The notes: generated from the sequence alone by a model not told the origin. Positions 9,981-30,921 are shown, numbered from the stretch's first letter. The stretch is DNA of 32,000 bases from Aquabacterium sp. CECT 9606 (GCF_918741295.1 NZ_CAKKNB010000004.1:513830-545829); one strand, 5' to 3'. Translations and numbers: made by a program.

Positions 9981-10070
9981 GGAAGTGTGGCCGAGTGGTT
10001 TAAGGCTCTAGTCTTGAAAACTAGCGTAGGGGCGACCTTACCGTGAGTTCGAATCTCACCGCTTCCGCCA
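9981..10070 (+). tRNA. tRNA-Ser, anticodon TGA (UGA), with long variable arm and encoded CCA
   Basis: GGAAGTG acceptor stem pairs with CGCTTCC (one G-U). D arm is GCC/GGC, anticodon stem CTAGT/ACTAG with loop CTTGAAA, T arm GTGAG-TTCGAAT-CTCAC, then discriminator G and CCA. The long extra arm is typical of a class II tRNA. Confidence 0.9.
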
Positions 10071-10316: not shown

Positions 10317-10345
10317 AACGTATCCATTGTGATAACGTGCTTATG

Positions 10346-10364
10346 CGTATACAAAATGTATACG
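10346..10364. promoter_or_regulatory. Perfect 7-bp inverted repeat CGTATAC-N5-GTATACG upstream of the repressor gene (candidate operator)
   Basis: Read directly from the sequence. It lies in the 94-bp gap between ORF 10411..10683(-) and the repressor start at 10316. Confidence 0.3.
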
Positions 10365-10410
10365 TTAGGCATCTGGAACCATTATGCAACTGTTGGCGGT
10401 TTGTTGGGGA

Positions 10411-10683
10411 TCAGCATCCCATCTCGATAAAGAGTGTCGTGACTTCTCTTTGAAGGTTCTCGGTTCTTTGTTTGGGAAGCGCTTGCAGAACCTTATCCAG
10501 TCTTTCGCAGTGGCGTCGTTCATTCACGCTGAGCTTGCTACGTCGGTCGTCTTCCTGCTGCTTAAGGGTCTTGCGCAAGAGATGCGCGTTTGGGTGCTCG
10601 GCTTCCGACCCCATGGCTTTCTGCGTGACTCCCATTGCGAGTATCAGTCCCGCGATGGCTACCAGTTTGTTTTTGAGTCGCAT
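10411..10683 (-). CDS. Small secreted protein of unknown function (prophage)
   Basis: 90 aa. Strong RBS AGGAGG lies 7 nt upstream of the ATG (complement of 10691-10696). Signal-peptide-like N-terminus MRLKNKLVAIAGLILAMGVTQKAMG. Confidence 0.6.
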   Translation of the reverse strand: MRLKNKLVAIAGLILAMGVTQKAMGSEAEHPNAHLLRKTLKQQEDDRRSKLSVNERRHCERLDKVLQALPKQRTENLQREVTTLFIEMGC

Positions 10684-10771
10684 TGGCGCTCCTCCTATTT
10701 CATTTCACAAGCCCAGTCCTAAGCGGCTTGGGTGCCTTTGGCCGTCTGGCCTTTTAACCTGGAGATTTTCC

Positions 10772-11071
10772 ATGCAATCGATCATCCGTATCCTGAAGCT
10801 GAACGAGGTTCGCAAAGGTATTAGCCAAAAGAATGGCAAGCCGTACGAAATGCAAGATGCTGAATGCCTCTTGCTCAAGGACACAGGGGAGGTGGATTCT
10901 GTCGGGGTTTTGCAAATCCCGAAGTCGCTGATGGGCAAGGTGACTGAGGGTGATTTCATCGGGCATTTCGCCCTGCAGCCAGACATGCAGACCCGCAAGA
11001 TTGGCGCTGTGCTCACTGGCTTGCAGCCCTACGCCGCTGGCAAGCCTCCTGCCTCTAGGCCTGCTGCTTAA
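10772..11071 (+). CDS. Putative ssDNA-binding protein (gene V analogue), assigned by position and size only
   Basis: Internal ATG at 10772 is preceded by GGAG (10761-10764) and opens MQSIIRILKLNEVRKGISQKNGKPYEMQDAE.... It is 99 aa and is the first gene of the rightward structural operon. Confidence 0.4.
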   Translation: MQSIIRILKLNEVRKGISQKNGKPYEMQDAECLLLKDTGEVDSVGVLQIPKSLMGKVTEGDFIGHFALQPDMQTRKIGAVLTGLQPYAAGKPPASRPAA

Positions 11072-11080
11072 GGGTTCGCT

Positions 11081-11299
11081 ATGAACCCCACTCACCAGCG
11101 CGTAGTGCGCTCCTTCGCATTCGTGGATGGCCCTGATCCGTTGGTGATGGGTGTTCAAGCCCTCGTGACTCTCTGTGAAGCGCCTCCCGTTCTTTCCCCT
11201 GCTGTCTGCCCTACCTGCGGTTCTGACAACCTCGTTTTCACGTCAAACGACAAGTACGCCGGTTGCATGGATTGCGATTGGTCTGGGGAGGCTCCTTGA
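11081..11299 (+). CDS. Small zinc-ribbon protein (prophage)
   Basis: 72 aa with CPTCGS...N18...CMDC, a four-Cys ribbon. Confidence 0.5.
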   Translation: MNPTHQRVVRSFAFVDGPDPLVMGVQALVTLCEAPPVLSPAVCPTCGSDNLVFTSNDKYAGCMDCDWSGEAP

Positions 11300-11347
11300 C
11301 CGCCTTTGATGCACTCATTTTGGTCAACATTCCAGAGGTCACTTGAC

Positions 11348-11461
11348 ATGAGTTTTTCAATCGTTCTTCTTCTGGGAATCTTCTGGGGCCTTGCTTTTGT
11401 GGTGTGGCTCTATACGGTTGTTTGCTTTATCGATTTTTTGCGTACGGTGTTCCGGCCATGA
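11348..11461 (+). CDS. Small hydrophobic protein, 37 aa (g7/g9-like minor virion protein candidate)
   Basis: Below the ORF-track size cutoff. My translation is MSFSIVLLLGIFWGLAFVVWLYTVVCFIDFLRTVFRP. It has an ATGA overlap with the next ORF. Confidence 0.4.
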   Translation: MSFSIVLLLGIFWGLAFVVWLYTVVCFIDFLRTVFRP

Positions 11462-11604
11462 GCATTGAACACCCCGGCTTTGATGAGTCTGAGCCTGATG
11501 AATTGCCCGTGCTTACGCCTTTGCAGTTGGTGCTCTGCGTGCTCTGGTTCTTCACGCCGTTCATCGCGTTTTGTCTTGACGCACTGCTGAGTTGTCATGG
11601 CTGA
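11458..11604 (+). CDS. Small membrane protein, 48 aa (prophage)
   Basis: Internal ATG of ORF 11404..11604 gives MSIEHPGFDESEPDELPVLTPLQLVLCVLWFFTPFIAFCLDALLSCHG. It is translationally coupled on both sides. Confidence 0.4.
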   Translation: MSIEHPGFDESEPDELPVLTPLQLVLCVLWFFTPFIAFCLDALLSCHG

Positions 11605-11932
11605 CCTTGCCCCATCTGCCACCTGCATCACGATCTCGTACAACCCTGATACGAATCAGAAGGTCTACACGGTCGACGGTGCCTGGGACCCATCCTCTTG
11701 CTACGGGCAAGTGATGGTGATCCACACTGAATTCCGTGACCTTTTAGCCGCTTCAGGTACTGGCTCCGGCGCACCTGTTGATAGTACTGGCGGCGGTGGT
11801 TTCCCTCCTTTGTCAGTTGCTGATGGTGTCGAAATTTCCTGGCTCATTGGTGGTGCTTGGTCTATTGCCTTTGCTGCGCGACTTGTCATCCGCTCGCTTT
11901 GGCGGACTGCACAAATTTCTTCTGATCCCTGA
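11597..11932 (+). CDS. Prophage protein with Gly-rich linker and C-terminal TM segment (minor virion protein candidate)
   Basis: 111 aa. The start overlaps the previous stop. Contains GTGSGAPVDSTGGGG followed by hydrophobic ISWLIGGAWSIAFAARLVI. Confidence 0.4.
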   Translation: MADLAPSATCITISYNPDTNQKVYTVDGAWDPSSCYGQVMVIHTEFRDLLAASGTGSGAPVDSTGGGGFPPLSVADGVEISWLIGGAWSIAFAARLVIRSLWRTAQISSDP

Positions 11933-11988
11933 CTGATGCCGGCCAGTCAAGGCTTTTTCAACATGCCGGTTTTTTTATGGAGTTCTCA

Positions 11989-12186
11989 ATGAATAAGTTC
12001 ATTCAACGTGGCCTCGTTGCCGCTGGTGCCCTGGCTCTCTCTGTTGCCAACGCTGCTGTTCCCACCAATGTTTCCACCGCGATCACTGAAGGCGGTACCG
12101 ATGGTGCAACCGTTGCTGGTCTGGTCCTCGTGGCCATGGTCGGCATCTGGGTGTTCAGCCTGATGCGCAAGGGCATGCGCGGCTGA
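11989..12186 (+). CDS. Major coat protein (g8p-like)
   Basis: ATG at 11989 is preceded by GGAG. Signal peptide MNKFIQRGLVAAGALALSVANA. The mature ~43-aa peptide has an acidic N-terminus, a hydrophobic core VAGLVLVAMVGIWVF and a basic tail MRKGMRG. A strong terminator follows. Confidence 0.75.
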   Translation: MNKFIQRGLVAAGALALSVANAAVPTNVSTAITEGGTDGATVAGLVLVAMVGIWVFSLMRKGMRG

Positions 12187-12202
12187 TCTGTTGCACAAGC
12201 CC

Positions 12203-12224
12203 GGGCCCTTCGGGGCCCTTTTTT
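12203..12224 (+). terminator. Rho-independent terminator after the coat gene
   Basis: GGGCCC-TTCG-GGGCCC hairpin followed by TTTTTT. Confidence 0.75.
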
Positions 12225-12286
12225 ATCGGGGGTGTCATGGAAGCTTACGGCGGCTGGTTTGTTGTGTTGACGGTGTTGGGGGTTCT

Positions 12287-13612
12287 ATGGATTTTGTTTC
12301 GCGATTGATTTTTCTGCTGTGCATTGTCCTGCCATCCTTGGCGCGTGCTGAGTACACGTGGACTGATCCAATCTGGCAAAACCCTTTCACTGGTGTTACC
12401 GGTAGTGCTGCTGTAGCTTGTTCGTCTTCTTCGGGGCCTAGTAACAACACATATTGCACTGCGACGACTAATGGATATGACTCTGATGGTCGTGCTGCGT
12501 GTAGGTCAACTTGTGACGGTGGGTATGTAGGTAATTTTTCGCTCTCTCCTTCTTGTTCTACAGGTGAGTTGTTGCTCAATAGTGCGACAGGAAAAATGGC
12601 GTGTCGGCATTTGGTTCCGGTGAATGATTGCCCGCCTGCTGGCACTGTTGAGGGTGATGGCACAAATGCTTACGTTGCGTCTTCTATAAATCCAACGATT
12701 TGTATTGGTGAAGGCACGCAAGGTTGTGTGTGGAAGCCCGGTGGCACGGTGCCTGCGGTGTGTGCCAATGGCAAGTGTTATCAGTGGGGTCCTTTCACGG
12801 CCACTGGTGCAGCCTGTGATCCTTCTTCTACCGTCCCTGGTGCTCCTGAGACTGCGGCGTCAGCCCCCGTCACTGATGCGTCGTGTGTCGCAAAGGGTCA
12901 GTGCCCTGGCACGATCAATGGCACAACGACTTGCGTTCCTTGCAGCAGTAAATCTCAAGAGAGTGTGACCAGCTCGGCATCTGCTGCCAGCTCTGCAGCG
13001 TCCGGTGCATCTTCGCCAACAACGTCGGGTGAAAGCGGAACTACGACGACAAAGACTGAGTGTTCAGGTTCTCAGTGCACAACGACAACGACCACCAGCA
13101 CGCAAAAGTCTGATGGTTCAAGTGAGCAGAAAAGCTCAACCAAAACTGAGCCCATGTCCGATTTCTGTGCGGCCAATCCAAAGGCAGCAGTTTGCAAAGG
13201 TGATGATGAAAGCCAGTGGGGCGGGGCTTGTGCCGGTGGCTTCACATGCAAGGGGGACGCCGTGCAGTGCGCTCAAGCACAAGCTTCGTATGACCTGTCG
13301 TGTTCGATGAAGACTGATCCACAGAATTCAACCGTTTTTGCCGGTAACAGCGCTATCGGTGCCGGTAATCGTCCTGATGGACATCCAGCTAACGACGCTG
13401 GAGTAATTCCGTTTCAGTTGTCTTCAATGATCAGTTCGGTTCCGATGTTCGGTTCCTCTGGTTCATGCATTTCTGACAAGACATTCACTTTCGTTGGTAG
13501 CTCGTACACATTGCCGTTTTCAAGCTGGTGCCCGTACTTGCAAATGCTCGGCGCTGCCTTCTTAGCGTCTTGCTATATGGCCGCTGCTTTCATCGTCTTC
13601 AAGGGAGATTGA
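12287..13612 (+). CDS. Adsorption / minor coat protein (g3p-like)
   Basis: Trimmed to ATG 12287 (MDFVSRLIFLLCIVLPSLARA signal peptide). Cys-rich N-terminal domains, a Ser/Thr-rich linker (SSASAASSAASGASSPTTSGESGTTTTK...TTTTTST) and a C-terminal hydrophobic anchor. It sits between the coat and g6-like genes. Confidence 0.65.
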   Translation: MDFVSRLIFLLCIVLPSLARAEYTWTDPIWQNPFTGVTGSAAVACSSSSGPSNNTYCTATTNGYDSDGRAACRSTCDGGYVGNFSLSPSCSTGELLLNSATGKMACRHLVPVNDCPPAGTVEGDGTNAYVASSINPTICIGEGTQGCVWKPGGTVPAVCANGKCYQWGPFTATGAACDPSSTVPGAPETAASAPVTDASCVAKGQCPGTINGTTTCVPCSSKSQESVTSSASAASSAASGASSPTTSGESGTTTTKTECSGSQCTTTTTTSTQKSDGSSEQKSSTKTEPMSDFCAANPKAAVCKGDDESQWGGACAGGFTCKGDAVQCAQAQASYDLSCSMKTDPQNSTVFAGNSAIGAGNRPDGHPANDAGVIPFQLSSMISSVPMFGSSGSCISDKTFTFVGSSYTLPFSSWCPYLQMLGAAFLASCYMAAAFIVFKGD

Positions 13613-13613
13613 T

Positions 13614-13913
13614 ATGCCTGTCTTCTTGTCTGCTCTCGTTGGCGCGCTCGTTAGTGCTGTCGGCACTATCGTCGGTCGCGTTCTCGTCAGTCTTGGTATC
13701 GCCTACGTTACTTATCAGGGCTTGAATGCGTCACTGGAGTGGCTCAAGTCCCAGGTGGCCTCGAACATGGGTTCGTTGCCTTCTGAAGCGTTACAGGTCC
13801 TCTCTGCGTTGCAAGTTGGCGCTGGCCTTTCGGTGATCTTGTCCGCCTTCGCTGCAAGGCTGGTCTTGTCTGGCCTTACCTCTGACTCGTTGAAAAAGAT
13901 GGTGCTCAAATGA
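13614..13913 (+). CDS. g6p-like small membrane protein
   Basis: 99-aa hydrophobic ORF with an ATGA overlap with the Zot-like gene. Confidence 0.5.
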   Translation: MPVFLSALVGALVSAVGTIVGRVLVSLGIAYVTYQGLNASLEWLKSQVASNMGSLPSEALQVLSALQVGAGLSVILSAFAARLVLSGLTSDSLKKMVLK

Positions 13914-15025
13914 TCGTGTTAATCACTGGTGTTCCTGGCAGTGGTAAGACCTTGTTCACCATTGACGAACTGCGCAAGCTCGCCGAAAAGGATCAACGTC
14001 AGGTTTATTACTCTGGTATCACTGACATCAAGCTGCCGTGGATCGAGCACGATGCACGCGACTGGATGAGCCTGCCGCCTAACTCCATCATGGTCATCGA
14101 TGAAGCTCAGCGGTTTTTTAGGCCTCGCGCAAACGGTGCTACTGTCCCGCCTGAAATTGCCGCAATGGAGACCCACCGGCATCTAGGCGTTGACATCTAT
14201 CTGATCACCCAGCACCCAATGCTGATCGATCAAAACATCAGGCGATTGACAGGGCGCCATTTCCACCTTCATCGCATGTTTGGCATGCATGCGGCCACTG
14301 TCCATGAGTACCCGAAGGTCAAGGAAAATTGCGACAAGCATTCAGCCGATGCATTGAAGCGGACATGGAAATATCCGAAGGATGTTTTCAGCCTTTACAA
14401 GTCGGCTGAGGTGCACACGCACAAAGTTCGAATCCCTCGCCAAGCTTGGTATCTGCTGGGCTTGATCTTGGTTTTTGCCCTCGGCGCTACCTATTTGTAC
14501 AAGTCTCGTGTGTCACCGAAGAAAGAGCAGCAAGCGTCGGCGTCTGACTCGTTCAACGTGTCTGGCATCTCTTCGCCGGGGCCTGGGTCTTACCAGCGCA
14601 AGGCCTTGACGCCCGCTGAGTACGTCCAGCAGTTCCAGCCGCGAGTTGCTGGTTTGGCCTACACCGCGCCGGTTTATGACGAGGTCACAAAGCCGGTGAG
14701 GGCGCCTTACCCTGCGGCCTGTGTTCAGGGCAAAAGTCGGTGTCAGTGCTACACCCAGCAGGGCACCAAGCTTGAGACCGACAAAGCCCTGTGTGAAGGC
14801 ATTGTGGCCGGTGGTTTCTTCATGGCCTGGGACGAGAACAAGGGCCAGGAGCGTGTGCAGGTCAACAAGCCCCCGGTAATGGCTCCTGTTGCCACGCGTG
14901 AGCCGTCATCAGGCCTGATCAACGCTACACCCGGTTGGACCCCATCCAGCGCCCGCCCATTGGCCGAACAGATCGCAGATGGTCAGAACCTGCGGCATGG
15001 CAAAAACAACCGTATACCGGGCTGA
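13910..15025 (+). CDS. Zot / pI-like assembly ATPase
   Basis: Walker A ITGVPGSGKT at the N-terminus, Walker B-like IMVIDEAQ, a central TM segment (AWYLLGLILVFALGATYLY), and the expected position after the g6-like gene. Confidence 0.8.
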   Translation: MIVLITGVPGSGKTLFTIDELRKLAEKDQRQVYYSGITDIKLPWIEHDARDWMSLPPNSIMVIDEAQRFFRPRANGATVPPEIAAMETHRHLGVDIYLITQHPMLIDQNIRRLTGRHFHLHRMFGMHAATVHEYPKVKENCDKHSADALKRTWKYPKDVFSLYKSAEVHTHKVRIPRQAWYLLGLILVFALGATYLYKSRVSPKKEQQASASDSFNVSGISSPGPGSYQRKALTPAEYVQQFQPRVAGLAYTAPVYDEVTKPVRAPYPAACVQGKSRCQCYTQQGTKLETDKALCEGIVAGGFFMAWDENKGQERVQVNKPPVMAPVATREPSSGLINATPGWTPSSARPLAEQIADGQNLRHGKNNRIPG

Positions 15026-15389
15026 CCTTGCCCTGCCTCATTCAGTCAAGACAGACACCGGGGCTCGTTGCGGCCAGTGGTCGAGTTAGTGACCGGCGTA
15101 GCCGGTGTAGAGGCCTTGCTGCGGGCTGCGTGGTGTCAAACCCACCCTTATCAAATGAGCCAGCTGCCAGAGTGCCAAAGGACACGGCGGCCAGTTGGTA
15201 TGAGATGGGCGGGAAGCGACGGCCCGGGGCCGCTAGGGCACGAGGCCGGCGCAGCCGGCCTAGATTTATCTTAAGGACACATCTTGTATTCACCCCCTGG
15301 CTCACTGCCTCGGTGGTTCAGAAAAGAAAAAGCCCCTCAAGGCTGCAACCTTGAAGGGCTCGGTACAGGCAACTAGATCGGAGTCACCC
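15026..15389. promoter_or_regulatory. Phage intergenic region with GC-rich hairpins (candidate replication origin / packaging region)
   Basis: Hairpins read from the sequence: ACCGGC-GTA-GCCGGT (15092-15106), GGCCGGC-GCA-GCCGGCC (15244-15260), and AGCCCCTCAAGG-CTGCAA-CCTTGAAGGGCT (15331-15360, one mismatch). No credible ORF. Confidence 0.4.
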
Positions 15390-16223
15390 ATGCCAGCGAT
15401 GTTACCCCGTTTGACCGAAGGCGACAAGGTCGCCTATGGTTATCAAGAGTTCTATAGAGTTTCCCTAACAGATCTGGGAAATGGTCATAAGGAAGCGTCG
15501 ATAACCACGCACAGGACCCTTTCAGAGTTGCCCCACTGGTGGGGTGTCAAGGACCCTTTAAAAACGCCTCTCACGCCCGAAGAGAACCGCGCACGGGCAG
15601 GGCGCAGAGCGAAGACTCAGGTCCGCCAGAAGTGCAAGGTCATGGGCGTTGATTCCCTGTTTACCTTGACCTACAAAGAAAACGTGATTGATCGTGATTT
15701 GGTCGCCAAGCATTGGACAGCCTTTGTCAGGCGCGTGCGCAAGCTCATTCCCGCGTTCAGTTATGTGGCGACTCTTGAGCGCCAGAAACGAGGTGCTTAT
15801 CACATCCATATCGCAACGCATCGACTTCCTGCGTTGTTGCAGCATCATGGTGTCAAGGTCAAAAGCTGGAACGTCATGCGTGCAATCTGGCGCTCCGTTG
15901 TAGGCACGTTAGGTGGGAATTTTGATGAGGCCAAACGGAAGTTTCACGCCAAGAGCAGAAGCTTCAAGATTGCCCGCTATATCAGCAAATACGTGTCAAA
16001 AGCCTTTGACGAAGGTGGCGAAGAGTTAGAGGGAAAAAAACGCTTTTGGGTCTCTGAGGGGATCAGCGTTCCTCGTCCTCAAGTCATGCTTTTTGCACGT
16101 GAGAAGTTCGCTGATTTGATCGCCCTTGTGCATAGTGCTTGCGGTGGTCATGATGGAGAAAACACCTTGTATGTTGACCCTGGCCGGGGGGTGTTTTGGA
16201 TGTGCAGTGAGGCTGGGGGGTAA
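15390..16223 (+). CDS. Rolling-circle replication initiator (HUH Rep, gene II analogue)
   Basis: ATG at 15390 is preceded by GGAG (15380-15383). HUH motif GAYHIHIATH and a Tyr motif ARYISKYVSK. The track's TTG start at 15351 lies inside a hairpin. Confidence 0.7.
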   Translation: MPAMLPRLTEGDKVAYGYQEFYRVSLTDLGNGHKEASITTHRTLSELPHWWGVKDPLKTPLTPEENRARAGRRAKTQVRQKCKVMGVDSLFTLTYKENVIDRDLVAKHWTAFVRRVRKLIPAFSYVATLERQKRGAYHIHIATHRLPALLQHHGVKVKSWNVMRAIWRSVVGTLGGNFDEAKRKFHAKSRSFKIARYISKYVSKAFDEGGEELEGKKRFWVSEGISVPRPQVMLFAREKFADLIALVHSACGGHDGENTLYVDPGRGVFWMCSEAGG

Positions 16224-16235
16224 GCAGGGGGATTT

Positions 16236-16856
16236 GTGCTGATCGGTTATGCAAGGGTCTCGTCAACTGAGCAAGAGACCACGCTACAGCTTGACGCATT
16301 GAAGCGGGCAGGGGTCACTACGGTGCATCAGGAAAAGCGCAGTGCAGGGGTTCGTAGGCCTGTTCTTGAGCGCATGTTGGACGGGCTTCAGGCCGGTGAC
16401 GTGGTGATGGTTTACAAGGTTGATCGCCTCGCGCGAAGCCTGGCAGACCTCTTGAGAATTCTGGCTCGGATTCAGGCGGTCGGCGCGACCTTCAAGAGCT
16501 TGACCGAAGCCATTCAGACTGACACCGCGATTGGTGAGCTGATGATGCACATGCTTGGCGCTGTGGCTCAGTTTGAGCGGTCATTGATCAGGGAAAGAAG
16601 CATGGCCGGTCAGGATGCGGCCTATTTGCGCGGTGCGAAGATTGGCAGACCACGGTGCATGACCCCGGCGCAAGAGGCTGAGTGCGTGCAGTTGTTTAAG
16701 AGCGGTCAGTACTTAATGCCTGCGTTGGCCACGCGGTATGGCTGCCACCTGTCGAGCATCAAGCGGGTGATGCTTCGGGTTGACAGTCCGCAGTCGTCTG
16801 CCGTCATTCTTCGTATGCCGTCGCGTATTGCCCGCACAAAGGACAAGGCTGCGTGA
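16236..16856 (+). CDS. Small serine recombinase (resolvase/invertase type)
   Basis: 206 aa. N-terminal catalytic motif LIGYARVSSTEQ, then VYKVDRLARS and a C-terminal HTH-like region. Lies 14 nt from the attR core. Confidence 0.85.
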   Translation: MLIGYARVSSTEQETTLQLDALKRAGVTTVHQEKRSAGVRRPVLERMLDGLQAGDVVMVYKVDRLARSLADLLRILARIQAVGATFKSLTEAIQTDTAIGELMMHMLGAVAQFERSLIRERSMAGQDAAYLRGAKIGRPRCMTPAQEAECVQLFKSGQYLMPALATRYGCHLSSIKRVMLRVDSPQSSAVILRMPSRIARTKDKAA

Positions 16857-18980: not shown

Positions 18981-19589
18981 TCATCTAGGTGCGACGGGAA
19001 CAGGAATAAATATGTCGTACCTGTACCGATAGTCGCCACCAAGGCCATCGATTTTTGCGCCGTTTGTGATTGCTAACGCCAAAGGTGTGCGCTCTAGAAA
19101 CGGGAATCGTTTTTTGATGATTGGAAGGTCTCTATTGGACTTGTCCCTAAGAGATACGTTCTCCCAGTCTGGAGACCAATTGAAGGAACCCAAATATATA
19201 GCCTTGCCTGCTTCTACCGAAAATGGAATTCCGATGGGCATGGATGAGTTGGCTGTACGCGCACCTTGGCGAACTTGCCAGGACTTGATTACGTATTTTC
19301 CGGTGGGCAACTCGACAGCAAAGGTGTCACCTTTTGCTTGGAGATCCTCGTCAGTATTTTTTACAAATGGGTACCAGTCACCACTTCCAGCCTGGAGAAA
19401 GTAAGTCTTATCGCCGTTCTCTGGAGTGACGAGGACACGATAGAGCCCCAACCCACTTTCATAGGTGATCGAACCTATCACTACGCCGACGACCTTCTTG
19501 TCGTCAAACTTGTAATCTGACGGAACGTTAACACAGGCCGACAAAACAGCAATTACTACTGGGGCGATGAAGAATCGAAGCAATCGCAT
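18981..19589 (-). CDS. Lipoprotein, unknown function
   Basis: Lipobox in MRLLRFFIAPVVIAVLSAC. Confidence 0.7.
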   Translation of the reverse strand: MRLLRFFIAPVVIAVLSACVNVPSDYKFDDKKVVGVVIGSITYESGLGLYRVLVTPENGDKTYFLQAGSGDWYPFVKNTDEDLQAKGDTFAVELPTGKYVIKSWQVRQGARTANSSMPIGIPFSVEAGKAIYLGSFNWSPDWENVSLRDKSNRDLPIIKKRFPFLERTPLALAITNGAKIDGLGGDYRYRYDIFIPVPVAPR

Positions 19590-19609: not shown

Positions 19610-19617
19610 GCCTAGCG
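19610..19617 (-). repeat. attC site 4, R' end only (GCCTAGCG); the rest was lost with the IS remnant
   Basis: Same junction as at 22498-22505, followed immediately by the IS left end AATGAAAGGGACTTCCCCGTCCCGAAC. Confidence 0.55.
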
Positions 19618-19830
19618 AATGAAAGGGACTTCCCCGTCCCGAACTATCCGCCGGGTATTGGCGGCAAAGGTCTTGAAGGACCAAGATGGGAAGTGCAACG
19701 TTTCCATCGACGGTTCATTCGGAAGGGAAAGTCATGAGCATTATTGCCATCGGCCTGGATTTGGCCAAGAACGTTTTTGCAATGCACGGCATTGATGAGG
19801 CGGGCAAAACGTTGCTGATCAAGCCGGCAG
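19618..19830 (+). mobile_element. Truncated remnant (left end plus first ~31 codons) of an IS110/IS1111-family element
   Basis: AATGAAAGGGACTTCCCCGTCCCGAACTA... matches the left end of the full copy at 22506. MSIIAIGLDLAKNVFAMHGIDEAGKTLLIKP parallels MAILFVGIDLAKSVFALHGVDEHGKAVLVAP. Homology stops about 10 nt before the stop codon of the next cassette ORF. Confidence 0.75.
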
Positions 19831-22029: not shown

Positions 22030-22479
22030 TCAAGCGAGGATTCTTCGCAGAGGGAACATGGTTGATTGGGAGAAACCGTGCTTTGAATAAAAGCGCTGCG
22101 CTGATGTGTTCTCATGATCCGTGAGTAGCGTAATGCGTTTGACGCCACTTCGGCGAGCGAGGTCTATGGCGTGATTCAGTAAGTCAGATCCAATGCCTGA
22201 GCCACGGGCGCCAGGGGATACGACCATGTCCTCGAGAAGCGCAACACGCTCGCCAATTGCGGTAGAGATGGTAAACAGCAGGTTGACCATTGCCAAGATG
22301 GAATTGCCTTCGCGAGCAACCAAGATGACGCCAAGATCCGGGTTGCTAATGATGCTTGATAAGCCTTTGGATTGAGCTGCCGTGTCTGGCTTGAACTCAG
22401 TTTCTTGGGTGAACAGAATCGATAGCAACTCACTGAGTGCAGGGATGTCCGATGCAGACGCACGTTCAAAGATTGGCAC
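22030..22479 (-). CDS. GNAT-family N-acetyltransferase
   Basis: Trimmed to the GTG (complement of 22477-22479), which has an AAGGA RBS 5 nt upstream. Acetyl-CoA motif VVSPGARGSGIGSDLLNHAI and a C-terminal FYSKHGF. The track ORF's extra N-terminus reads through the attC remnant into the IS. Confidence 0.8.
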   Translation of the reverse strand: MPIFERASASDIPALSELLSILFTQETEFKPDTAAQSKGLSSIISNPDLGVILVAREGNSILAMVNLLFTISTAIGERVALLEDMVVSPGARGSGIGSDLLNHAIDLARRSGVKRITLLTDHENTSAQRFYSKHGFSQSTMFPLRRILA

Positions 22480-22497
22480 GGTGTTCCTTTTCGAGAA

Positions 22498-22505
22498 GCC
22501 TAACG
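22498..22505 (-). repeat. attC site 8, R' end (GCCTAACG), separated from the rest by the IS
   Basis: Joining 22498-22505 to 23956-24014 restores a 67-bp site nearly identical to attC site 19 (30855-30921). Confidence 0.8.
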
Positions 22506-22619
22506 AATGAAAGGGACTTCCCCGTCCCGAACTAGCCGCGTATTGCGGCGACCGGTCATGAAAGACCAAGATGGGAAGTGCGAATAACTCATCTTTGTTT
22601 CATTCGGAAGGAGAAGTCC

Positions 22620-23637
22620 ATGGCTATTTTGTTCGTTGGAATCGATCTCGCCAAGTCCGTGTTTGCGCTGCATGGTGTGGATGAGCATGGCAAGGCGGTG
22701 TTGGTGGCGCCCAAAGTGGCGCGCGACAAGTTGGTGGGCATGATCGCGGCGCTGCCGCCGTGCATCGTTGGCATGGAGGCGTGCTCGGGCGCCCACCACT
22801 GGGCGAGGCTGTTCGCCGGCTTGGGCCACACGGTGCGGCTGATGGCGCCGAAGTTCGTCGCGCCGTACCGCATGAGCGGCAGGCGAGGCAAGAACGATGC
22901 GGCCGACGCCGCGGCCATCTGCGAGGCCGTGCAGCGGCCCAACATGCGGTTCGTGCCAGTCAAAAGTCTTGAGCAACAGGGCAAGCTCAGCGTGCACCGG
23001 ATGCGGCAAGGCTCTCATCGAGCAACGCACGGCCACCATCAACCGCATCCGGGGGCTGTTGGCCGAGTTTGGGATCGTCCTGCCGCTGAAGGCGGCGACG
23101 GTGAGGCGCGAGGCCGGCGCCTGCCTGGAGGAACTGCCTGGCTGGGCGAACCTGGCCATTGGCGACGCACTGAGCGAGTTGCATCGGCTCGATGAACGCA
23201 TCGAACAATATGACCGGCACATTGCCCAGATGGCCCGCGAAGACGAGCGGGCGCGTCAGCTCATGAAGCTGTGCGGGATCGGCGAGACCACGGCATCGGC
23301 GATCGTGGCGATGGTGGGCAACGGGCATGAGTTCAGCTGCGGCAGGCAATTCGCGGCTTGGCTGGGATTGACGCCGGGGCAGTTCAGTTCGGGTGGCAAG
23401 AGTCGGCTGGGTCGCATCACCAAGGCCGGGGACAGCTACCTGCGCAGCCTGTTGGTACTTGGTGCCAGGGCCGTGCTCAACGCCGCGGCTGGCAAGGCCG
23501 ACCGCATCAGCACGTGGGCCAAGGCGCTGGCCGAGCGAAGAGGCTACTGGCGCGCGGTGATCGCCATTGCCGCCAAGAACGTCCGGATGGCCTGGGCCGT
23601 GCTGCGACGAGGCGAGGCCTTCGAGATGCCGAACTAG
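22620..23637 (+). pseudogene. IS110-family (DEDD) transposase, disrupted by a frameshift near 23005-23012
   Basis: The N-terminal half lies in the frame of ORF 22578..23195 (MAILFVGIDLAKSVFALHGVDEHGK...VKSLEQQGKLSVHRMRQG). The C-terminal half lies in the frame of ORF 22897..23637 (LIEQRTATINRIRGLLAEFGIV...GRITKAGDSYLRSLLV...). The junction CAAGGCTCTCATCGAG needs one base removed (or two added) to read ...RQG(x)LIEQR. Confidence 0.75.
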
Positions 23638-23692
23638 ACAGAGATACTTCCGCCGCGTGACGGCAAGCGTTGATGACAACAGGTTGGACCTG

Positions 23693-23762
23693 CGCGGGCA
23701 GTAACCGTTTAACTCGTGGGCAGCGCGTGTGCGCTTGCCGGCTAACAAATGGGTCGCCCGCG
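23693..23762 (+). ncRNA. Candidate guide loop of a bridge/seek RNA in the IS 3' non-coding region
   Basis: Outer stem CGCGGGC (23693-23699) pairs with GCCCGCG (23756-23762). Inner hairpin is GGCAGCGC-GTGT-GCGCT(T)GCC (23719-23739). These leave a 19-nt 5' strand (AGTAACCGTTTAACTCGTG) and a 16-nt 3' strand (GGCTAACAAATGGGTC) of a large internal loop. Both strands contain attC-like words. Confidence 0.35.
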
Positions 23763-23955
23763 TGCGTCTTGCATCAGGGTCTGCGGCACCTGAACTGCCG
23801 TGTTCATGACCGTTTGTAGTCTGGCCAGTCCGCACTTTGTTGTCGCTCCCTTTGCTCGCCTGATCTGCGTCGGCGTTGTGCATTGTTTGATGATGTTGGC
23901 TCGCTGCGCGAGCCTTGGGTCAGCTATTGTTTGACAGATGGAGAAGCCCTTGTAG

Positions 23956-24014
23956 CAAAAGTTAACGGGCGGCAATGCGAAGCATTGACGTCCCTGTTGA
24001 ACGATAAGTTAGGC
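23956..24014 (-). repeat. attC site 8, remainder
   Basis: CAAAAGTTAACGGGCGGCAATGCGAAGCATTGACGTCCCTGTTGAACGATAAGTTAGGC. Confidence 0.8.
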
Positions 24015-24084
24015 TGGTAGCCAGTGCCAGAAGTGTTGGCATGTTCAGGTTGATTTTCATTCTGAGTGTCTGCAAAAACTATAG

Positions 24085-25234: not shown

Positions 25235-25244
25235 GATGTTAGAG

Positions 25245-25338
25245 GCCTAACGCCACAGGTAAGCCGCACCGGAGCGCGAAGCGCGCAGGGAACCCACAAG
25301 TGAAACTTGTGGGTGTCGGCTTGACCGACACGTTAGGC
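25245..25338 (-). repeat. attC site 10 (94-bp family)
   Basis: Near-identical to sites 12 and 14. Confidence 0.85.
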
Positions 25339-25889
25339 TGGGGCGAGAAGCAACCGCCTGTGAGAAAAAGCAAGCCTTGCTTTGCTGGCAGATGTTTGAC
25401 CTTGGCATGCCAAAACTCCCTTGGATTGATTGCAATTCTGCCTGATGCCAAAGCACCTGGCCAACCGGCGAATACTCGCAGACCGCCGACAGGCGGGCCG
25501 GTTCACTAAAACTTGTGGCCTGCTGCCTGCCAAGTTCGCCGCAGAGCTGGCAAACGCCAGGCAGTGATGGCCAAAGGCCATGACTGCGGGATGCCAAGTG
25601 CTGTGGCTTGCCACGGCATCACAGTGCACTGGCCGCCGAAGGACGGGCAGCCACAAGGCGATGGCGTATGGCACTTTGGCGCCGCACGGTGGTGAGCAGG
25701 CTGCCAAAGGACAGACAGCCAGATGAAAACTTGCCCAGCCACCAAGTCGTGACCCGCGAAGCCTGTTGATCTGTGCCTAGAAATGCGCGCAACGCTTGAG
25801 TACAAAAGGAAAGCAGCGCTGGCCACGACTAAACGTTGAAAGTATCAATGGCCAGACTTCGCCACATTGCTGATTGAAGGCAACCAAAA
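25339..25889. other. ORF-less cassette X1 (candidate structured RNA)
   Basis: About 90% identical to X3 and shares a ~110-nt core with X2. Only low-complexity Cys/His/Arg/Trp-rich frames are present. Confidence 0.5.
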
Positions 25890-25975
25890 GCCTAACGCCT
25901 AAGTTAACGGGCGCCCGCGTGGCGACGGCGAAGCGATGCAGGGTATCAGCGTCCCTGTTGAACGCCAAGTTAGGC
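25890..25975 (-). repeat. attC site 11 (86-bp family)
   Basis: GCCTAAC GCCTAA GTTAACGGG ... CCCTGTTGAAC GCCAA GTTAGGC. Confidence 0.8.
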
Positions 25976-26449
25976 TGGGGCGAGAAGGACCAGCGGATGA
26001 TCCGCAACGAGCAGTGCCTTGCTGACTAGCATTTGACCTGTGCACGCCAAAACTCCCTTTGTGTGACTGGATGGAATTGTGCCTGACGGGCGTAGAACTG
26101 TGAACCAGCGGCGCGGATTTATGCTCGTTGAATCATCGATGGCTTTGAAATGCGCATGAGAACCGGTGCGGGCCGAGATGATGCGCTGACTGCCGAAGGA
26201 CAGAAAGCCAGCCGCCGATGGCGTGTGGCACTTTGGCGCCGCACGATGGTGAGCAGGCTGCCGAAGGGCAGACAGCCAGATGGAGACTTGCTCCGCTGCC
26301 CGGCTGCGAACTGCTTCGCTTGTTAGCGCCGGACCTGGCCAGAATGCGCAATGCATGAGAGGCAAAGAAAGCAGCGCCGAAAGACGAGCAAGCGATTGAA
26401 GCTTCATGGCCCAAGACCTTGCCAGGAAGAAAAGGCAAGAGAACCGAAA
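25976..26449. other. ORF-less cassette X2 (diverged relative of X1/X3)
   Basis: Shares the core 26192-26290 with X1/X3, including both 18-nt direct repeats. Confidence 0.5.
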
Positions 26450-26543
26450 GCCTAACGCCACAGGTAAGCCGCACCGGAGCGCGAAGCGCGCAGGGAACCC
26501 ACAAGTGAAGCTTGTGGGTGTCGGCTTGACCGACACGTTAGGC
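26450..26543 (-). repeat. attC site 12 (94-bp family)
   Basis: As for site 10. Confidence 0.85.
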
Positions 26544-27099
26544 TGGGGCGAGAAGGAACAGCTGCTGAGGACAAGCCGACCTTGCTTTGCTGATAGATGT
26601 TTGACCTTGCCACGCCTGGGCCCCCTTGGCTTGAATTACAGAGATTCTGCCTGATGCCCGTGCGCCTAGCCAACCGGCGAATACTCGCAGACCGCCGACA
26701 GGCGGGCCGGTTCACTAAAACTTGTGGCCTGCTGCTTGCAAAGCCCGCCGCAAAGCTTGAAAAGCGCCAGGCAGTGATGGCCTTTGGTCATGACTGCGGG
26801 ATGCCATGTGCGGTGGCTTGCCACGGCACCACAGTGCACTGGCCGCCTCAGGACGGACAGCCACCAGGCGATGGCGTATGGCACTTTGGTGCTGCACGGT
26901 GGTGAGCAGGCTGCCGAAGGACAGACAGCCAGATTGAAACTTGCCAAGCCACCAAGTCGTGACCTGCGAAGCCTGTTGATCTGTGCCTAGAAATGCGCGC
27001 AACGCTTGAGTACAAAAAGAAAGCAGCGCTGGCCACGACTAAACGGTGAAAGAATCAATGGTCAGACTTCGCCACATTGCTGATTGAAGGCAGCCAAAA
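26544..27099. other. ORF-less cassette X3 (candidate structured RNA)
   Basis: See X1. Confidence 0.5.
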
Positions 27100-27193
27100 G
27101 CCTAACGCCCGCGGTAAGCCGCGCCGGAGTGCGAAGCACGGAGGGCACCCACAAGCGGAGCTTGTGGGCGTCGGCTTGACCAACCTGTTAGGC
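27100..27193 (-). repeat. attC site 13 (94-bp family)
   Basis: As for site 5. Confidence 0.85.
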
Positions 27194-27275
27194 TGGGGAG
27201 CGAAGGCAGGGTAGAGCAAGTTCACTCCTGATGCGTTAGGGTCGAGTGTTCACAAAAGTCGGCCAAGCGCCCAGC

Positions 27276-27863
27276 CTACTGGGCAGTGGTCTTGGCACGG
27301 CGACGGGCGACAAGAAAAATACCGAATATGAACGGCAACCCAACAGTGACTACGCTGATGCCAGCGATCGAAAGCGACATGCCCAATGACTCAAGGCGAT
27401 GGGTGCGGTGCCATTCGTTGCCTGGCAAAGACCAGATGAACAAAGAAAGGGCAGCCCAGACGGCACCGATGGAAACCGCCATGGTGCTGTACTGGAGGCA
27501 ATTCTTGCGGACTAACCAAGCCGATGCGGGAACCGCCAGAAGACCCAGGATTGGCAGCGCGATAGTCAGTAACAAAATCGAGAAATACAGCGACCAACTC
27601 GGGACAATTGTCCATCTCTGAGACTCAACGAGGCCTCCGGCTGCTACTCGCGAGGTGAACTCAATATAGGACCAAGTAAAAGTAGCTAGGACGAGACCAA
27701 GTCCCGCAAATGAATAGCCAGCGGCGAGCGGAGCGAATCCCGCAGGCCTGAACCGTCGGCCGAGCACCAGCCGCCAAATTGCGAACGGCGCTGCAATAGC
27801 AAACGCGATAGCGATGAGCCCGGCGGGGCGTGTCATCCAGTAAACGAGCCAGTCGGGAGCCAT
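27276..27863 (-). CDS. Polytopic membrane protein, unknown function
   Basis: 195 aa with about 6 hydrophobic spans. The start lies 8 nt from the attC core. Confidence 0.65.
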   Translation of the reverse strand: MAPDWLVYWMTRPAGLIAIAFAIAAPFAIWRLVLGRRFRPAGFAPLAAGYSFAGLGLVLATFTWSYIEFTSRVAAGGLVESQRWTIVPSWSLYFSILLLTIALPILGLLAVPASAWLVRKNCLQYSTMAVSIGAVWAALSLFIWSLPGNEWHRTHRLESLGMSLSIAGISVVTVGLPFIFGIFLVARRRAKTTAQ

Positions 27864-27870
27864 TTATGAA

Positions 27871-27964
27871 GCCTAACGCCACAGGTAAGCCGCACCGGAG
27901 CGCGAAGCGCGCAGGGAACCCACAAGTGAAACTTGTGGGTGTCGGCTTGACCGAAAAGTTAGGC
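27871..27964 (-). repeat. attC site 14 (94-bp family)
   Basis: As for site 10. Confidence 0.85.
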
Positions 27965-27990
27965 TGGTGACAGGTGCGCTGAAGGAAGAA

Positions 27991-28542
27991 CTATGCATTG
28001 CGGTGCCCATTAGTGCGGTCGTAGATGAGGCGAGCTACCAGGAGAGTGACACCGCCCAGTAGGCAGGGTAACCATACCCAAAGAAGCTCTGACACGAGCA
28101 CTTCGACGCCCTTCGGCCCGAATACGCGGCGAAGACTCAGTGGTGAGGCTTCAATGACTTGCCATGGAAGAAAAAAGCGTTCATTTGAAGCAGGCCACCA
28201 TAGGGCTACGCCGTGCCCTCCGTTTGTGAGCATGTCGAGGACACCGTGAGACGCCGCTGAAAAAGCAACGAACACGAACGCCAGGCCTCGGGTTGCACGT
28301 AAATGAGGCGCCGCCAGGGTAGCGATAAGCCCCATAAGCACAGCAAGAGCGAGAGAGTGCGATGCGCCGCGATGGCCGAAGGAGTCAGCGTAAGGGATGC
28401 CGAAGCGAAAGGCCAAAACGTCTAGGTCTGGCAGAACGGATACAAGGAGACCGACTGTGAGCAGGCGAGGAGAAACGGCCTGCTTACCTAAACCCAGGCG
28501 GAATGCAATGGGCGCAGCTATATGGGAGAAAACAGTTGGCAT
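27991..28542 (-). CDS. Membrane-bound metal-dependent hydrolase, YdjM/DUF457-like
   Basis: Trimmed to the ATG at 28540-28542 (MPTVFSHIAAPIAF...). Contains LPDLD, GHRGASHSL and SHGVLDMLT His/Asp motifs in a 4-5 TM protein, as I recall for this family. Confidence 0.6.
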   Translation of the reverse strand: MPTVFSHIAAPIAFRLGLGKQAVSPRLLTVGLLVSVLPDLDVLAFRFGIPYADSFGHRGASHSLALAVLMGLIATLAAPHLRATRGLAFVFVAFSAASHGVLDMLTNGGHGVALWWPASNERFFLPWQVIEASPLSLRRVFGPKGVEVLVSELLWVWLPCLLGGVTLLVARLIYDRTNGHRNA

Positions 28543-30854: not shown

Positions 30855-30921
30855 GCCTAACGCCTAAGTTAACGGGCGGCAATGCGGAGCATTGACGTCC
30901 CTGTTGAACGACAAGTTAGGC
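30855..30921 (-). repeat. attC site 19 (67 bp)
   Basis: Intact counterpart of the IS-interrupted site 8. Confidence 0.85.

What the first reader, a model, noticed from the sequence alone, without database searches (positions are those of the whole stretch)
23638..23955. The IS 3' non-coding region folds into a stem / large internal loop / hairpin whose loop strands carry attC-like words; candidate bridge (seek) RNA programmed for attC sites
**Established background.** IS110/IS1111-family recombinases use an element-encoded guide RNA (bridge RNA or seekRNA, described in 2024). Its internal loops base-pair with target and donor DNA. In IS1111-type elements the long non-coding region lies downstream of the recombinase gene, as it does here (about 318 nt downstream versus 114 nt upstream).

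**Seen in the sequence.**
- Outer stem 23693-23699 pairs with 23756-23762.
- The inner hairpin spans 23719-23739.
- The 5' loop strand contains AACCGTTTAACTC. Its complement GAGTTAAACGG resembles the attC L' region (A/G)AGTTAACGG next to the insertion point.
- The 3' loop strand contains GGCTAAC, close to the attC core GCCTAAC on the other side of the insertion point.
- Further downstream, TCCCTTTG (23847-23854) is complementary to the IS left end AAAGGGA (22510-22516), which fits a donor guide.
- GAGAAGCC occurs both in the left target flank (22493-22500) and near the IS right terminus (23941-23948).

**Inference.** This RNA directs insertion one base from the R' core of attC sites. That would be a natural example of RNA-guided targeting of integron recombination sites.
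Basis: partly seen in the sequence, partly recalled or inferred. Interest (0 to 1): 0.7.

Follow-up and report, generated by a model that had tools for sequence, protein, structure and literature searches.

The report
Guide RNA of attC-hunting insertion sequence
The non-coding tail of this insertion sequence encodes the kind of guide RNA (seekRNA/bridge RNA) already shown in 2024 to steer IS1111-type elements into integron attC sites; here it belongs to a different lineage that hits the other end of attC, and this particular copy is mutationally dead.

Summary
Stem 23691-23699/23756-23764 encloses a 12+12 nt internal loop and hairpin 23719-23739. It is conserved in 140 of 162 related loci, with strong compensatory covariation.

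The loop strands are target guides:
- The 5' strand (23707-23718) is complementary to the top strand of the right flank.
- The 3' strand (23740-23751) repeats the left junction, CTAAC-G-AATG.
- In relatives inserted elsewhere, both strands change to match the new flanks (permutation tests 0/3000).

So the main interpretation holds: a seekRNA programmed for attC, inserting one base from the R' core.

Three details fail:
- The proposed donor guide TCCCTTTG is a chance-level match confined to near-identical copies.
- GAGAAGCC is part of the right subterminal inverted repeat.
- The IS starts at 22505/22506, not 22510.

Better donor-guide candidates are CUUGCAU (23768-23774) and UUGUAG (23814-23819).

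The concept is published: Siddiquee et al. 2024 showed seekRNAs for attC-targeting ISKpn4 and ISPst6. What may be new is the lineage. It is ISCARN32-like, with only 35% transposase identity to ISKpn4, and it targets the 3' (L'-R') end of attC rather than the 5' end.

This copy is decayed, with a tnp frameshift and a guide core mutation.

The parts
22505..23955 (+). IS1111-family insertion sequence (ISCARN32-like). G22505 is also the target base, so the IS proper is 22506-23955.
   Evidence: Ends GAATGAAAGGGACTTCCCC and GGGGAAGCCCTTGTAG are conserved in more than 100 relatives with differing flanks. The intact sister attC at 30855-30921 has a 6-nt spacer, GCCTAAC-GCCTAA-GTTAAC.
22498..22504 (+). 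Left target flank GCCTAAC, the complement of the attC R' core GTTAGGC on the cassette (-) strand.
   Evidence: Cassette ORFs are all on the - strand. The 5-nt and 6-nt spacers and the extra base in GTTCAAC against GTTAAC set the attC orientation.
23956..24014 (+). Right target flank: the rest of the interrupted attC (spacer CAAAA, L' box GTTAAC ... R'' GTTAGGC as read on the + strand).
   Evidence: 96% identical to the intact attC at 30866-30921 (family D10).
22511..22523 (+). Left subterminal inverted repeat AAGGGACTTCCCC.
   Evidence: Read directly from the sequence. It is the inverse of GGAGAAGCCCTT with one indel. Conserved across the family.
23940..23951 (+). Right subterminal inverted repeat GGAGAAGCCCTT (family consensus GGGGAAGCCCTT).
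22620..23637 (+). DEDD transposase gene, a pseudogene with one extra C at about 23014.
   Evidence: The repaired 338-aa product hits PF01548 and PF02371. The frameshift was located by alignment with four intact relatives.
23691..23699 (+). P2, 5' arm of the outer stem of the target-binding module.
   Evidence: Pairs with 23756-23764. 97% of cells paired, and 5 of 9 pairs have changes on both sides.
23756..23764 (+). P2, 3' arm.
23704..23706 (+). P2b, a 3-bp helix (ACC) pairing with GGT at 23752-23754. It closes the internal loop.
   Evidence: 100% paired. All 3 pairs are compensatory across relatives (ACC/GGT, CCT/AGG, CTC/GAG).
23707..23718 (+). 5' loop strand GUUUAACUCGUG, the right-target guide. 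It is complementary to the top strand of the right flank.
   Evidence: 8 of 10 matches to its own flank CAAAAGTTAA and 9 of 10 to the attC at 24435. It covaries with right flanks across 61 distinct guides.
23719..23739 (+). P3 hairpin between the two guide strands.
   Evidence: All 8 pairs show changes on both sides. An example is GCGC/GCGC changing to GCAC/GTGC in L084.
23740..23751 (+). 3' loop strand GGCUAACAAAUG, the left-target guide. It has the same sense as the left junction CTAAC-G-AATG and so pairs with the bottom strand. A23747 is a private mutation of the consensus G.
   Evidence: The nearest relative L163 has CTAACGAATG.
23768..23774 (+). Candidate 5' donor guide CUUGCAU (family consensus CUUUCAU). 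It is complementary to IS left-end bases ATGAAAG (22507-22513).
   Evidence: CTTTCAT occurs in 74% of 113 NCRs. ISKpn4 carries CUACAG at the same position and spacing, complementary to its own left end. This assignment is inferred.
23778..23811 (+). P5 (GGUC 23778-23781 with GACC 23808-23811) enclosing the P6 hairpin (23783-23787 with 23797-23801).
   Evidence: All 5 P6 pairs are compensatory. One P5 pair covaries (UA 50, AU 4, CG 2).
23814..23819 (+). Candidate 3' donor guide UUGUAG, identical to the last 6 nt of the IS (23950-23955).
   Evidence: Invariant in 113 of 113 distinct NCRs. ISKpn4 has AUAUGCG at the same position, matching its own end ATATGTG. This assignment is inferred.
23686..23689 (+). 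P0 5' arm GGAC. It may pair with GUCC at 23828-23831 and enclose a multiloop that holds the donor guides.
   Evidence: 99% paired but nearly invariant. One compensatory case was seen: L134 has AGAC/GUCU. Tentative.

Best explanation
Window 23670-23831, the 3' non-coding region of an IS1111-family insertion sequence (22505-23955), encodes the element's seekRNA/bridge RNA on the + strand.

Target-binding module. It runs from P2 through a 4-nt bulge and a 3-bp helix into a symmetric 12+12 nt internal loop with a central hairpin.
- The 5' loop strand base-pairs with the top strand of the DNA to the right of the insertion point. That DNA is the spacer and L' box of attC.
- The 3' loop strand base-pairs with the bottom strand to the left, the complement of the conserved R' core. 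It continues through the shared G into the first four IS bases, which is a handshake-like extension.

Outcome. The DEDD transposase would therefore insert the circularised IS into the L'-R' spacer. The insertion lies one base from R' and the IS is antisense to the cassettes.

Donor-binding part. A second, multiloop part probably holds the donor ends. It comprises CUUUCAU, a P5/P6 arm and UUGUAG.

Basis of each step.
- Shown by comparative analysis: the structure, and the covariation of the guides with the flanks.
- Inferred from published work on ISEc11, ISKpn4 and IS621: that the RNA is made, binds the transposase and guides recombination.
- Inferred, and weaker: the donor guides.

This copy. 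It is most likely inactive. It has a tnp frameshift at about 23014 and a G-to-A change at the core position of the 3' guide (23747).
For: - Family membership: the repaired Tnp carries PF01548 and PF02371. The long NCR lies downstream of tnp and subterminal inverted repeats are present.
- Structure: the local fold has z = -2.77. On 60 relatives, 92.4% of cells pair against 79.9% for shuffled and 35-47% for slid partners, and 22 pairs have changes on both sides.
- Fixed site: all close relatives (88-97% Tnp identity) sit at GCCTAACG|...TAG|N5-6 GTTAAC/GGTAAG in different attC sites.
- Retargeted relatives change both strands to match their new flanks:
  - L096: GATTATCTTTGG and GCTATCCGAATG, against flanks CTCCTATCC|G and TAG|CAAAGATAATCG.
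  - L153: GATCATGTCGAG against TTCGACATGAGC.
  - L030 and L021 also match.
  - L136 against L065 shows a compensatory A/G change.
- Permutation with one representative per distinct guide:
  - Right flank: 7.03 matches against 5.14 +/- 0.14 (0 of 3000).
  - Left flank: 5.57 of 7 against 3.05 +/- 0.42 (0 of 3000).
- Opposite-sense controls show little or no signal: left flank 3.34 vs 3.31 (670 of 2000); right flank a small excess, 4.11 vs 3.89 (8 of 2000).
- In the window, the guide matches the R'-side half-sites at 6-9 of 10 positions and the R''-side half-sites at about 4.
- ISKpn4 has a seekRNA that was verified experimentally (PMC11187229). It shows the same architecture and register in L162.
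Against: - There is no direct evidence of transcription or processing. No sigma-70-like promoter was found in 22400-24050, and no Rfam family matches.
- Position-wise complementarity in natural sites is imperfect: 42-68% at flank positions +3 to +9, against 25-47% for the null. The register also varies by +/-1.
- The donor ends are invariant in this family, so the donor guides cannot be tested by covariation within it.
- The consensus CUUUCAU overlaps a possible alternative helix, UUGAUGA/UCAUCAG.
- The handshake after UUGUAG is only weakly supported (0.60 against 0.55; 74 of 3000).
- This copy carries disabling mutations.
Confidence: 0.88

Rival explanations
1. The internal loop 23700-23755 binds the target, and TCCCTTTG at 23847-23854 is the donor guide that pairs with the IS left end AAAGGGA.
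For: TCCCTTT is complementary to 22510-22516 and is conserved in the seven closest distinct NCR tails.
Against: - A 7-nt complement of this kind arises in 26% of shuffles (524 of 2000).
- The word is absent from the other 103 of 110 distinct NCR tails, although their left end is identical.
- UUGUAG and CUUUCAU are conserved and have positional counterparts in ISKpn4.
Confidence: 0.06
2. The region is only a structured 3' UTR, such as a terminator, a stability element or a transposase-binding site. On this view the attC-like words are chance or a compositional echo of the surrounding array.
For: The whole-NCR fold is no better than shuffles. No promoter was found and there is no Rfam hit.
Against: - The loop strands track the flanks in relatives that target unrelated sequences, on both sides at once.
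- The loop is kept single-stranded by flanking helices that covary.
- No terminator-like site was found on the + strand.
Confidence: 0.03
3. The NCR carries a captured attC fragment or an attC-like decoy. It is recognised by the integron integrase or arose by imprecise excision, and it is not a guide RNA.
For: Both loop strands contain attC core-like words, GTTTAAC and GGCTAAC.
Against: - Both words are in the same RYYYAAC sense, so they cannot pair with each other as R''/R' do.
- The 3' strand continues into IS-end bases (GAATG), which no attC contains.
- Relatives targeting non-attC sites keep the scaffold with different loop words.
Confidence: 0.02

Closest known systems
seekRNA of ISKpn4, ISPst6 and ISPa25, the IS1111 elements that target attC (Siddiquee, Pong, Hall & Ataide 2024, PMC11187229)
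   Same: - The RNA is encoded in the NCR downstream of tnp.
- The scaffold is identical: stem, bulge, short helix, 12+12 nt loop and hairpin. In ISKpn4 these lie at L162 2024-2088.
- The 5' strand is complementary to the right flank and the 3' strand repeats the left junction.
- The same downstream arrangement appears to match the element's own ends.
- The target class is attC, and the IS is antisense to the cassettes.
   Different: - The transposase is only 35% identical to TnpKpn4 and 39% to TnpPa25.
- The IS ends are different.
- Insertion is in the L'-R' spacer, 1 nt from R' at the 3' end of attC. ISKpn4 inserts in the R''-L'' spacer near the 5' end.
- Relative to the local RYYYAAC half-site, the IS is in the opposite orientation.
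IS621 bridge RNA (Durrant et al. 2024, PMC11208160; Hiraizumi et al. 2024, PMC11208158)
   Same: - An internal loop has two guide strands that each read a different DNA strand on either side of a shared core.
- A handshake-like extension runs into the partner DNA.
- A second module serves the donor.
   Different: - The RNA is at the 3' end of the element.
- The order of the guides is reversed: the right-target guide is 5' of the left-target guide.
- The shared core appears to be a single G rather than CT.
- The donor guides seem to sit in a multiloop, as Durrant et al. noted for many IS1111 elements.
ISCARN32, ISPsy16 and IS1492 (ISfinder IS1111 members)
   Same: - ISCARN32 is the closest named transposase, at 73% identity.
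- ISPsy16 (L165) has the same IS ends and the same RNA scaffold.
   Different: I found no description of their targets or guide RNAs in the held literature. ISPsy16 carries different loop words: GAAAAATCGTAT and GGTTAGCGAACG.

Membership tests
IS1111 family of insertion sequences | DEDD (RuvC-like) transposase with a PF02371 C-terminal domain and a GL-P----S(T)G motif | tested here: met
   PF01548 at 2.5e-16 and PF02371 at 1.3e-24 on the repaired 338-aa protein. GLTPGQFSSG was read in the translation. The gene carries one frameshift.
IS1111 family of insertion sequences | The longer non-coding region lies downstream of tnp | tested here: met
   318 nt downstream (23638-23955) against 114-115 nt upstream.
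IS1111 family of insertion sequences | Subterminal inverted repeats with short terminal extensions | tested here: met
   AAGGGACTTCCCC at 22511-22523 against GGAGAAGCCCTT at 23940-23951. The extensions are 5-6 nt on the left and 4 nt on the right. Conserved in the family.
IS1111 family of insertion sequences | Site- and orientation-specific insertion | tested here: met
   All relatives at 88-97% identity sit at the same position of different attC sites.
seekRNA / bridge RNA | A conserved stem, internal loop and hairpin RNA structure in the long NCR | tested here: met
   92.4% of cells paired, 22 pairs with changes on both sides, and the slid controls collapse.
seekRNA / bridge RNA | Two loop segments match opposite strands of the target on either side of the insertion point, in the IS1111 order | tested here: met
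   The 5' strand is complementary to the top strand of the right flank. The 3' strand is identical to the top strand of the left flank. Opposite-sense controls: no signal for the left flank (670 of 2000); a small excess for the right flank, 4.11 vs 3.89 (8 of 2000).
seekRNA / bridge RNA | Guide segments covary with target sequences among relatives (natural reprogramming) | tested here: met
   0 of 3000 permutations on each side, using one representative per distinct guide. Explicit cases are L096, L030, L021, L010, and L136 against L065.
seekRNA / bridge RNA | Segments that recognise the donor (IS ends) | tested here: inconclusive
   UUGUAG is invariant and CUUUCAU is present in 74%. ISKpn4 has counterparts at the same positions that match its own ends. 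Covariation within the family is impossible because the ends are invariant.
seekRNA / bridge RNA | The RNA is produced, binds the transposase and is required for transposition | not testable with these tools
   This needs RNA-seq, RNP purification and transposition assays.
IS1111-attC group (ISPst6, ISPa21, ISKpn4; Tetu & Holmes 2008) | The transposase falls within the monophyletic ISPst6-related clade (at least about 74% identity among members) | tested here: not met
   35% identity to TnpKpn4. The closest named relative is ISCARN32 at 73%. The group is described as monophyletic in PMC3001079.
IS1111-attC group (ISPst6, ISPa21, ISKpn4; Tetu & Holmes 2008) | Insertion near the 5' end of attC (the R''-L'' side) | tested here: not met
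   Here the insertion is between L' and R', 1 nt from R'. ISKpn4 in L162 lies between R'' and L''.
IS1111-attC group (ISPst6, ISPa21, ISKpn4; Tetu & Holmes 2008) | Targets attC and lies antisense to cassette transcription | tested here: met
   tnp is on the + strand and all cassette ORFs are on the - strand.
Rfam families | A match to any curated covariance model | tested here: not met
   Nothing reached the gathering threshold. The only hits were noise at E = 3.8-6.1.

The most novel reading that the evidence does not exclude
This IS represents a large lineage of IS1111 elements that has not been described as attC-targeting. It has ISCARN32/ISPsy16-type ends and is widespread in Betaproteobacteria and in metagenomes. 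It evolved attC targeting independently of the ISPst6/ISKpn4 group.

Its 3' guide is anchored on the conserved R' core next to the integron crossover point. Its 5' guide diversifies with the L' box of the attC family found in each host.

If so, it is a natural series of reprogrammed seekRNAs that cut off the recombinogenic end of attC sites.
Probability: 0.5. Interest if true: 0.5.

Novelty: new member of a known kind. Interest (0 to 1): 0.35.

Why it matters
The mechanism and the target class are already published, so the finding does not open a new question.

Its value is comparative. More than 100 natural relatives share one RNA scaffold and one pair of IS ends but carry at least 61 distinct right-target guides and 14 left-target guides. 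That is a ready-made data set on which mismatches, register shifts and handshake bases IS1111 recombinases tolerate.

It also shows that attC sites were colonised at least twice by RNA-guided IS, at opposite ends. An insertion 1 nt from R' separates the crossover core from the rest of the attC. It should therefore freeze cassette boundaries in chromosomal integrons.

Tried and rejected
- Whole-NCR folding gave no signal (z = 0.06). Only the local module is informative.
- Rfam gave nothing, at either the gathering or the permissive threshold.
- The 10-nt inverted repeat 22553-22562/23803-23812 was considered as the subterminal repeat. I rejected it because the left arm is a local hairpin that covaries within itself, while the right arm is invariant.
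- Scoring guide against flank in a fixed register under-counts matches, because natural sites shift by +/-1 nt. I replaced it with register-free and best-of-three tests.
- I tried to classify every relative's site as attC by requiring a near-perfect inverted core. This recovered 24 of 81 sites against 4.2 expected. It is too strict, because sites that are clearly attC with degenerate R'' fail it. Some relatives really are in non-attC DNA: L013 sits in another IS, and L039 and L040 are also outside attC.
- The handshake after UUGUAG is only marginal.
- Helix P1 (UUGAUGA/UCAUCAG) and helix P0 cannot be tested, because their columns are invariant.
- ISPsy16 and IS1492 were fetched as distant comparators for the donor guides. 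ISPsy16 has the same ends, so it was uninformative. IS1492 (L166) was fetched but could not be read, so it was not examined.
- The papers by Tetu & Holmes (2008) and Post & Hall (2009) are not in the library. The published insertion point was therefore taken from PMC3001079 and from reading ISKpn4 in L162.

Full report
**Context.** The window from about 17.3 kb to 32 kb is an integron cassette array.
- It contains about 20 attC repeats. They read GCCTAAC-N6-GTTAAC/GGTAAG ... GTTGAAC-N5-GTTAGGC on the + strand.
- All cassette ORFs are on the - strand.
- Three features match canonical attC polarity with the - strand as top strand: the 5-nt spacer, the 6-nt spacer, and the extra base in GTTCAAC against GTTAAC.
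- On that reading, the GCCTAAC at 22498-22504 is the complement of an R' core.

**The element.** Between that core and the rest of the attC (23956-24014) lies an insertion sequence of 1.45 kb.
- The interrupted attC is 96% identical to the intact attC at 30866-30921.
- Its gene (22620-23637, + strand) is broken by one extra C at about 23014, as shown by comparison with four intact relatives.
- The repaired 338-aa protein has the DEDD_Tnp_IS110 and Transposase_20 domains and the GLTPGQFSSG motif.
- Its identity to named transposases is 73% to ISCARN32, 58% to ISCfr26, 40% to ISKpn2, 39% to ISPa25 and 35% to ISKpn4.

**Boundaries.**
- The sequences GAATGAAAGGGACTTCCCC and GGGGAAGCCCTTGTAG are conserved in more than 100 relatives whose flanks differ.
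- The intact sister attC has a 6-nt spacer.
- The IS is therefore 22505/22506-23955, and the G is shared by the target and both junctions.
- The subterminal inverted repeats are 22511-22523 and 23940-23951.

**The observation.**
- The whole NCR folds no better than shuffles (z = 0.06).
- The segment 23680-23775 does fold better (z = -2.77).

**Relatives.**
- A protein search found thousands of relatives, with intact copies up to 97% identical.
- Scans of genomes and metagenomes gave 160 loci at 64-91% identity. They come mainly from Burkholderiales, Rhodocyclales and Gallionellaceae.
- In 140 of 162 loci (the 160 scanned loci plus L001 and the window) the same module is recognisable.

**Structure test.** I tested an explicit structure on an alignment of 60 diverse copies (A1).
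- 92.4% of cells pair, against 79.9 +/- 0.5% when partners are shuffled and 35-47% when they are slid.
- 22 of 33 pairs show changes on both sides.
- Helices with compensatory changes:
  - P2: 23691-23699 with 23756-23764.
  - P2b: 3 bp, 23704-23706 with 23752-23754, seen as ACC/GGT, CCT/AGG and CTC/GAG.
  - P3: the hairpin 23719-23739.
  - P6: a downstream hairpin, 23783-23787 with 23797-23801.
- P5 (23778-23781 with 23808-23811) has one covarying pair.
- P0 (23686-23689 with 23828-23831) is nearly invariant, with a single compensatory case (L134).

**What the loop strands do.** P2b and P3 enclose two 12-nt single strands.
- The 5' strand (23707-23718, GUUUAACUCGUG) is complementary to the top strand of the right flank.
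  - It matches 8 of the first 10 bases of CAAAAGTTAA here.
  - It matches 9 of 10 bases of the neighbouring attC at 24435.
- The 3' strand (23740-23751) reads GGCUAACAAAUG. In all the closest relatives it reads GGCUAACGAAUG, which is the left junction CTAAC|G|AATG in the sense of the top strand.
  - It would therefore pair with the bottom strand of the R'-core complement.
  - It then runs on into the IS end.

Relatives inserted elsewhere carry matching changes in both strands.

| Locus | 5' strand | Right flank after TAG | 3' strand | Left junction |
|---|---|---|---|---|
| L096 (also L095, L098) | GATTATCTTTGG | CAAAGATAATCG | GCTATCCGAATG | CTCCTATCC\|G |
| L153 group | GATCATGTCGAG | TTCGACATGAGC | – | – |
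| L030 | GACCAGTGCAGG | CTGCACTGG | ACTTTCGAATG | GACTTGC\|GAATG |
| L021 | GAATGAAGGCCC | GGCCTTCAT | GATGTGAATG | CCGATGT\|GAATG |
| L136 | ...ATATTGT... | ACAATATGA | – | – |
| L065 | ...ATGTTGT... | ACAACATGA | – | – |

L136 and L065 differ by a compensatory A/G change.

**Permutation tests.**
- With one representative per distinct guide:
  - Right flanks match their own guide at 7.03 positions, against 5.14 +/- 0.14 after permutation (0 of 3000).
  - Left flanks match at 5.57 of 7, against 3.05 +/- 0.42 (0 of 3000).
- A register-free test gives the same answer. The opposite-sense controls show no signal for the left flank and only a small excess for the right flank.
- Natural sites are imperfect, and the register shifts by one base in some lineages.

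**Specificity within the window.** The guide matches the + strand (R'-side) half-sites at 6-9 of 10 positions and the R''-side half-sites at about 4. This explains both the end of attC that is hit and the fixed orientation.

**Donor side.**
- A 7-nt complement to the left end occurs in 26% of shuffles.
- The word is confined to the near-identical copies, 7 of 110 distinct tails.

Two other words are conserved.
- UUGUAG (23814-23819) is invariant in 113 of 113 NCRs and identical to the last six bases of the IS.
- CUUUCAU (CUUGCAU here, 23768-23774; present in 74%) is complementary to ATGAAAG of the left end.

They flank the P5/P6 arm in the same way that the target strands flank P3. ISKpn4 shows the same layout and spacing with different words that match its own ends:
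- CUACAG-AAU-GGCC ... GGCC-GG-AUAUGCG in the RNA.
- Left end GGCTGTAATGG and right end CCATATGTG in the IS.

I therefore propose these two words as the donor guides, held in a multiloop. Durrant et al. noted this arrangement for many IS1111 elements. This step is inferred. The donor ends are invariant within the family, and a handshake after UUGUAG is only marginal.

**Comparison with what is known.**
- Siddiquee et al. 2024 showed that ISKpn4 and ISPst6, which target attC, produce 82- and 86-nt seekRNAs. These co-purify with the transposase and carry matches to both target strands. The authors predicted the same for ISPa25.
- The scaffold here is the same as that of ISKpn4.
- Relative to IS621, the order of the guides is reversed, as published for IS1111.
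- So the mechanism and the idea of RNA-guided attC targeting are known.

**What differs.**
- The published IS1111-attC group is monophyletic and inserts near the 5' end of attC, antisense to the cassettes (PMC3001079). ISKpn4 in L162 sits between R'' and L''.
- This element is outside that clade.
- It inserts in the L'-R' spacer one base from R', also antisense to the cassettes.
- Many, though not all, of its 64-91% relatives are also in attC-type sites.
- I could not find a description of this lineage's target in the held literature. The two founding papers on attC-targeting IS are not held.

**State of this copy.**
- It has the frameshift at about 23014 and a private G-to-A change at the core position of the 3' guide (23747). 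The 97% relative L163 sits in a different attC and has G at that position.
- A second, truncated left end of a related IS lies at 19617-19807, after GCCTAGCG.
- The array has therefore been hit at least twice, and both copies are now remnants.

**Verdict.** Three details are wrong, and the concept is already published. This is a new member, and possibly a new attC-targeting lineage, of a known kind.

Noticed in passing
window 19617-19807: This is a truncated left end of a second, related IS. It begins GAATGAAAGGGACTTCCCC and runs into the start of tnp, about 74% identical to 22498-22693. It is inserted at the same attC position, after GCCTAGCG. The rest of the element, including any guide RNA, is missing.
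   Followed up: partly
window 9981-16856: tRNA-Ser(TGA) lies at 9981-10070, and GC content drops from 0.61-0.66 to about 0.52-0.55 after it. The region that follows has a Zot-like gene (13910-15025), a G2P-type replication protein (15351-16223) and a serine resolvase (16236-16856). It looks like an integrated filamentous-phage-like element between the tRNA and the end of the cassette array.
   Followed up: partly
L002 and L095, right junctions: Two unrelated copies have CCCTTGTAGTAG at the right junction, an extra TAG compared with their sister insertions. This suggests occasional 3-nt slippage or an alternative crossover at the right end.
   Followed up: no
L013 (Pseudorhodoferax MAG), right flank: One relative is inserted after GCCTAACG but into the coding sequence of another IS110-family transposase rather than into an attC. 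This shows off-target use of sites that match only part of the guide.
   Followed up: no
window 19452-19552 (- strand): ARAGORN calls a 101-nt tRNA-Cys(ACA) with an odd anticodon position. Rfam does not report it. It lies inside a cassette ORF and is probably a false positive.
   Followed up: no
window 25236-28055 and 25552-27061: Neighbouring cassettes share long direct repeats at 78-93% identity (repeat families D5, D6, D8 and D9). These are duplicated or paralogous cassettes within the array.
   Followed up: no
L165 (ISPsy16, pPsv48C): ISPsy16 has the same IS ends and RNA scaffold as this family. Its 3' strand (GGTTAGCGAACG) matches its left junction CTTAGC|GAATG. Its 5' strand matches the right flank of this copy poorly.
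   Followed up: no
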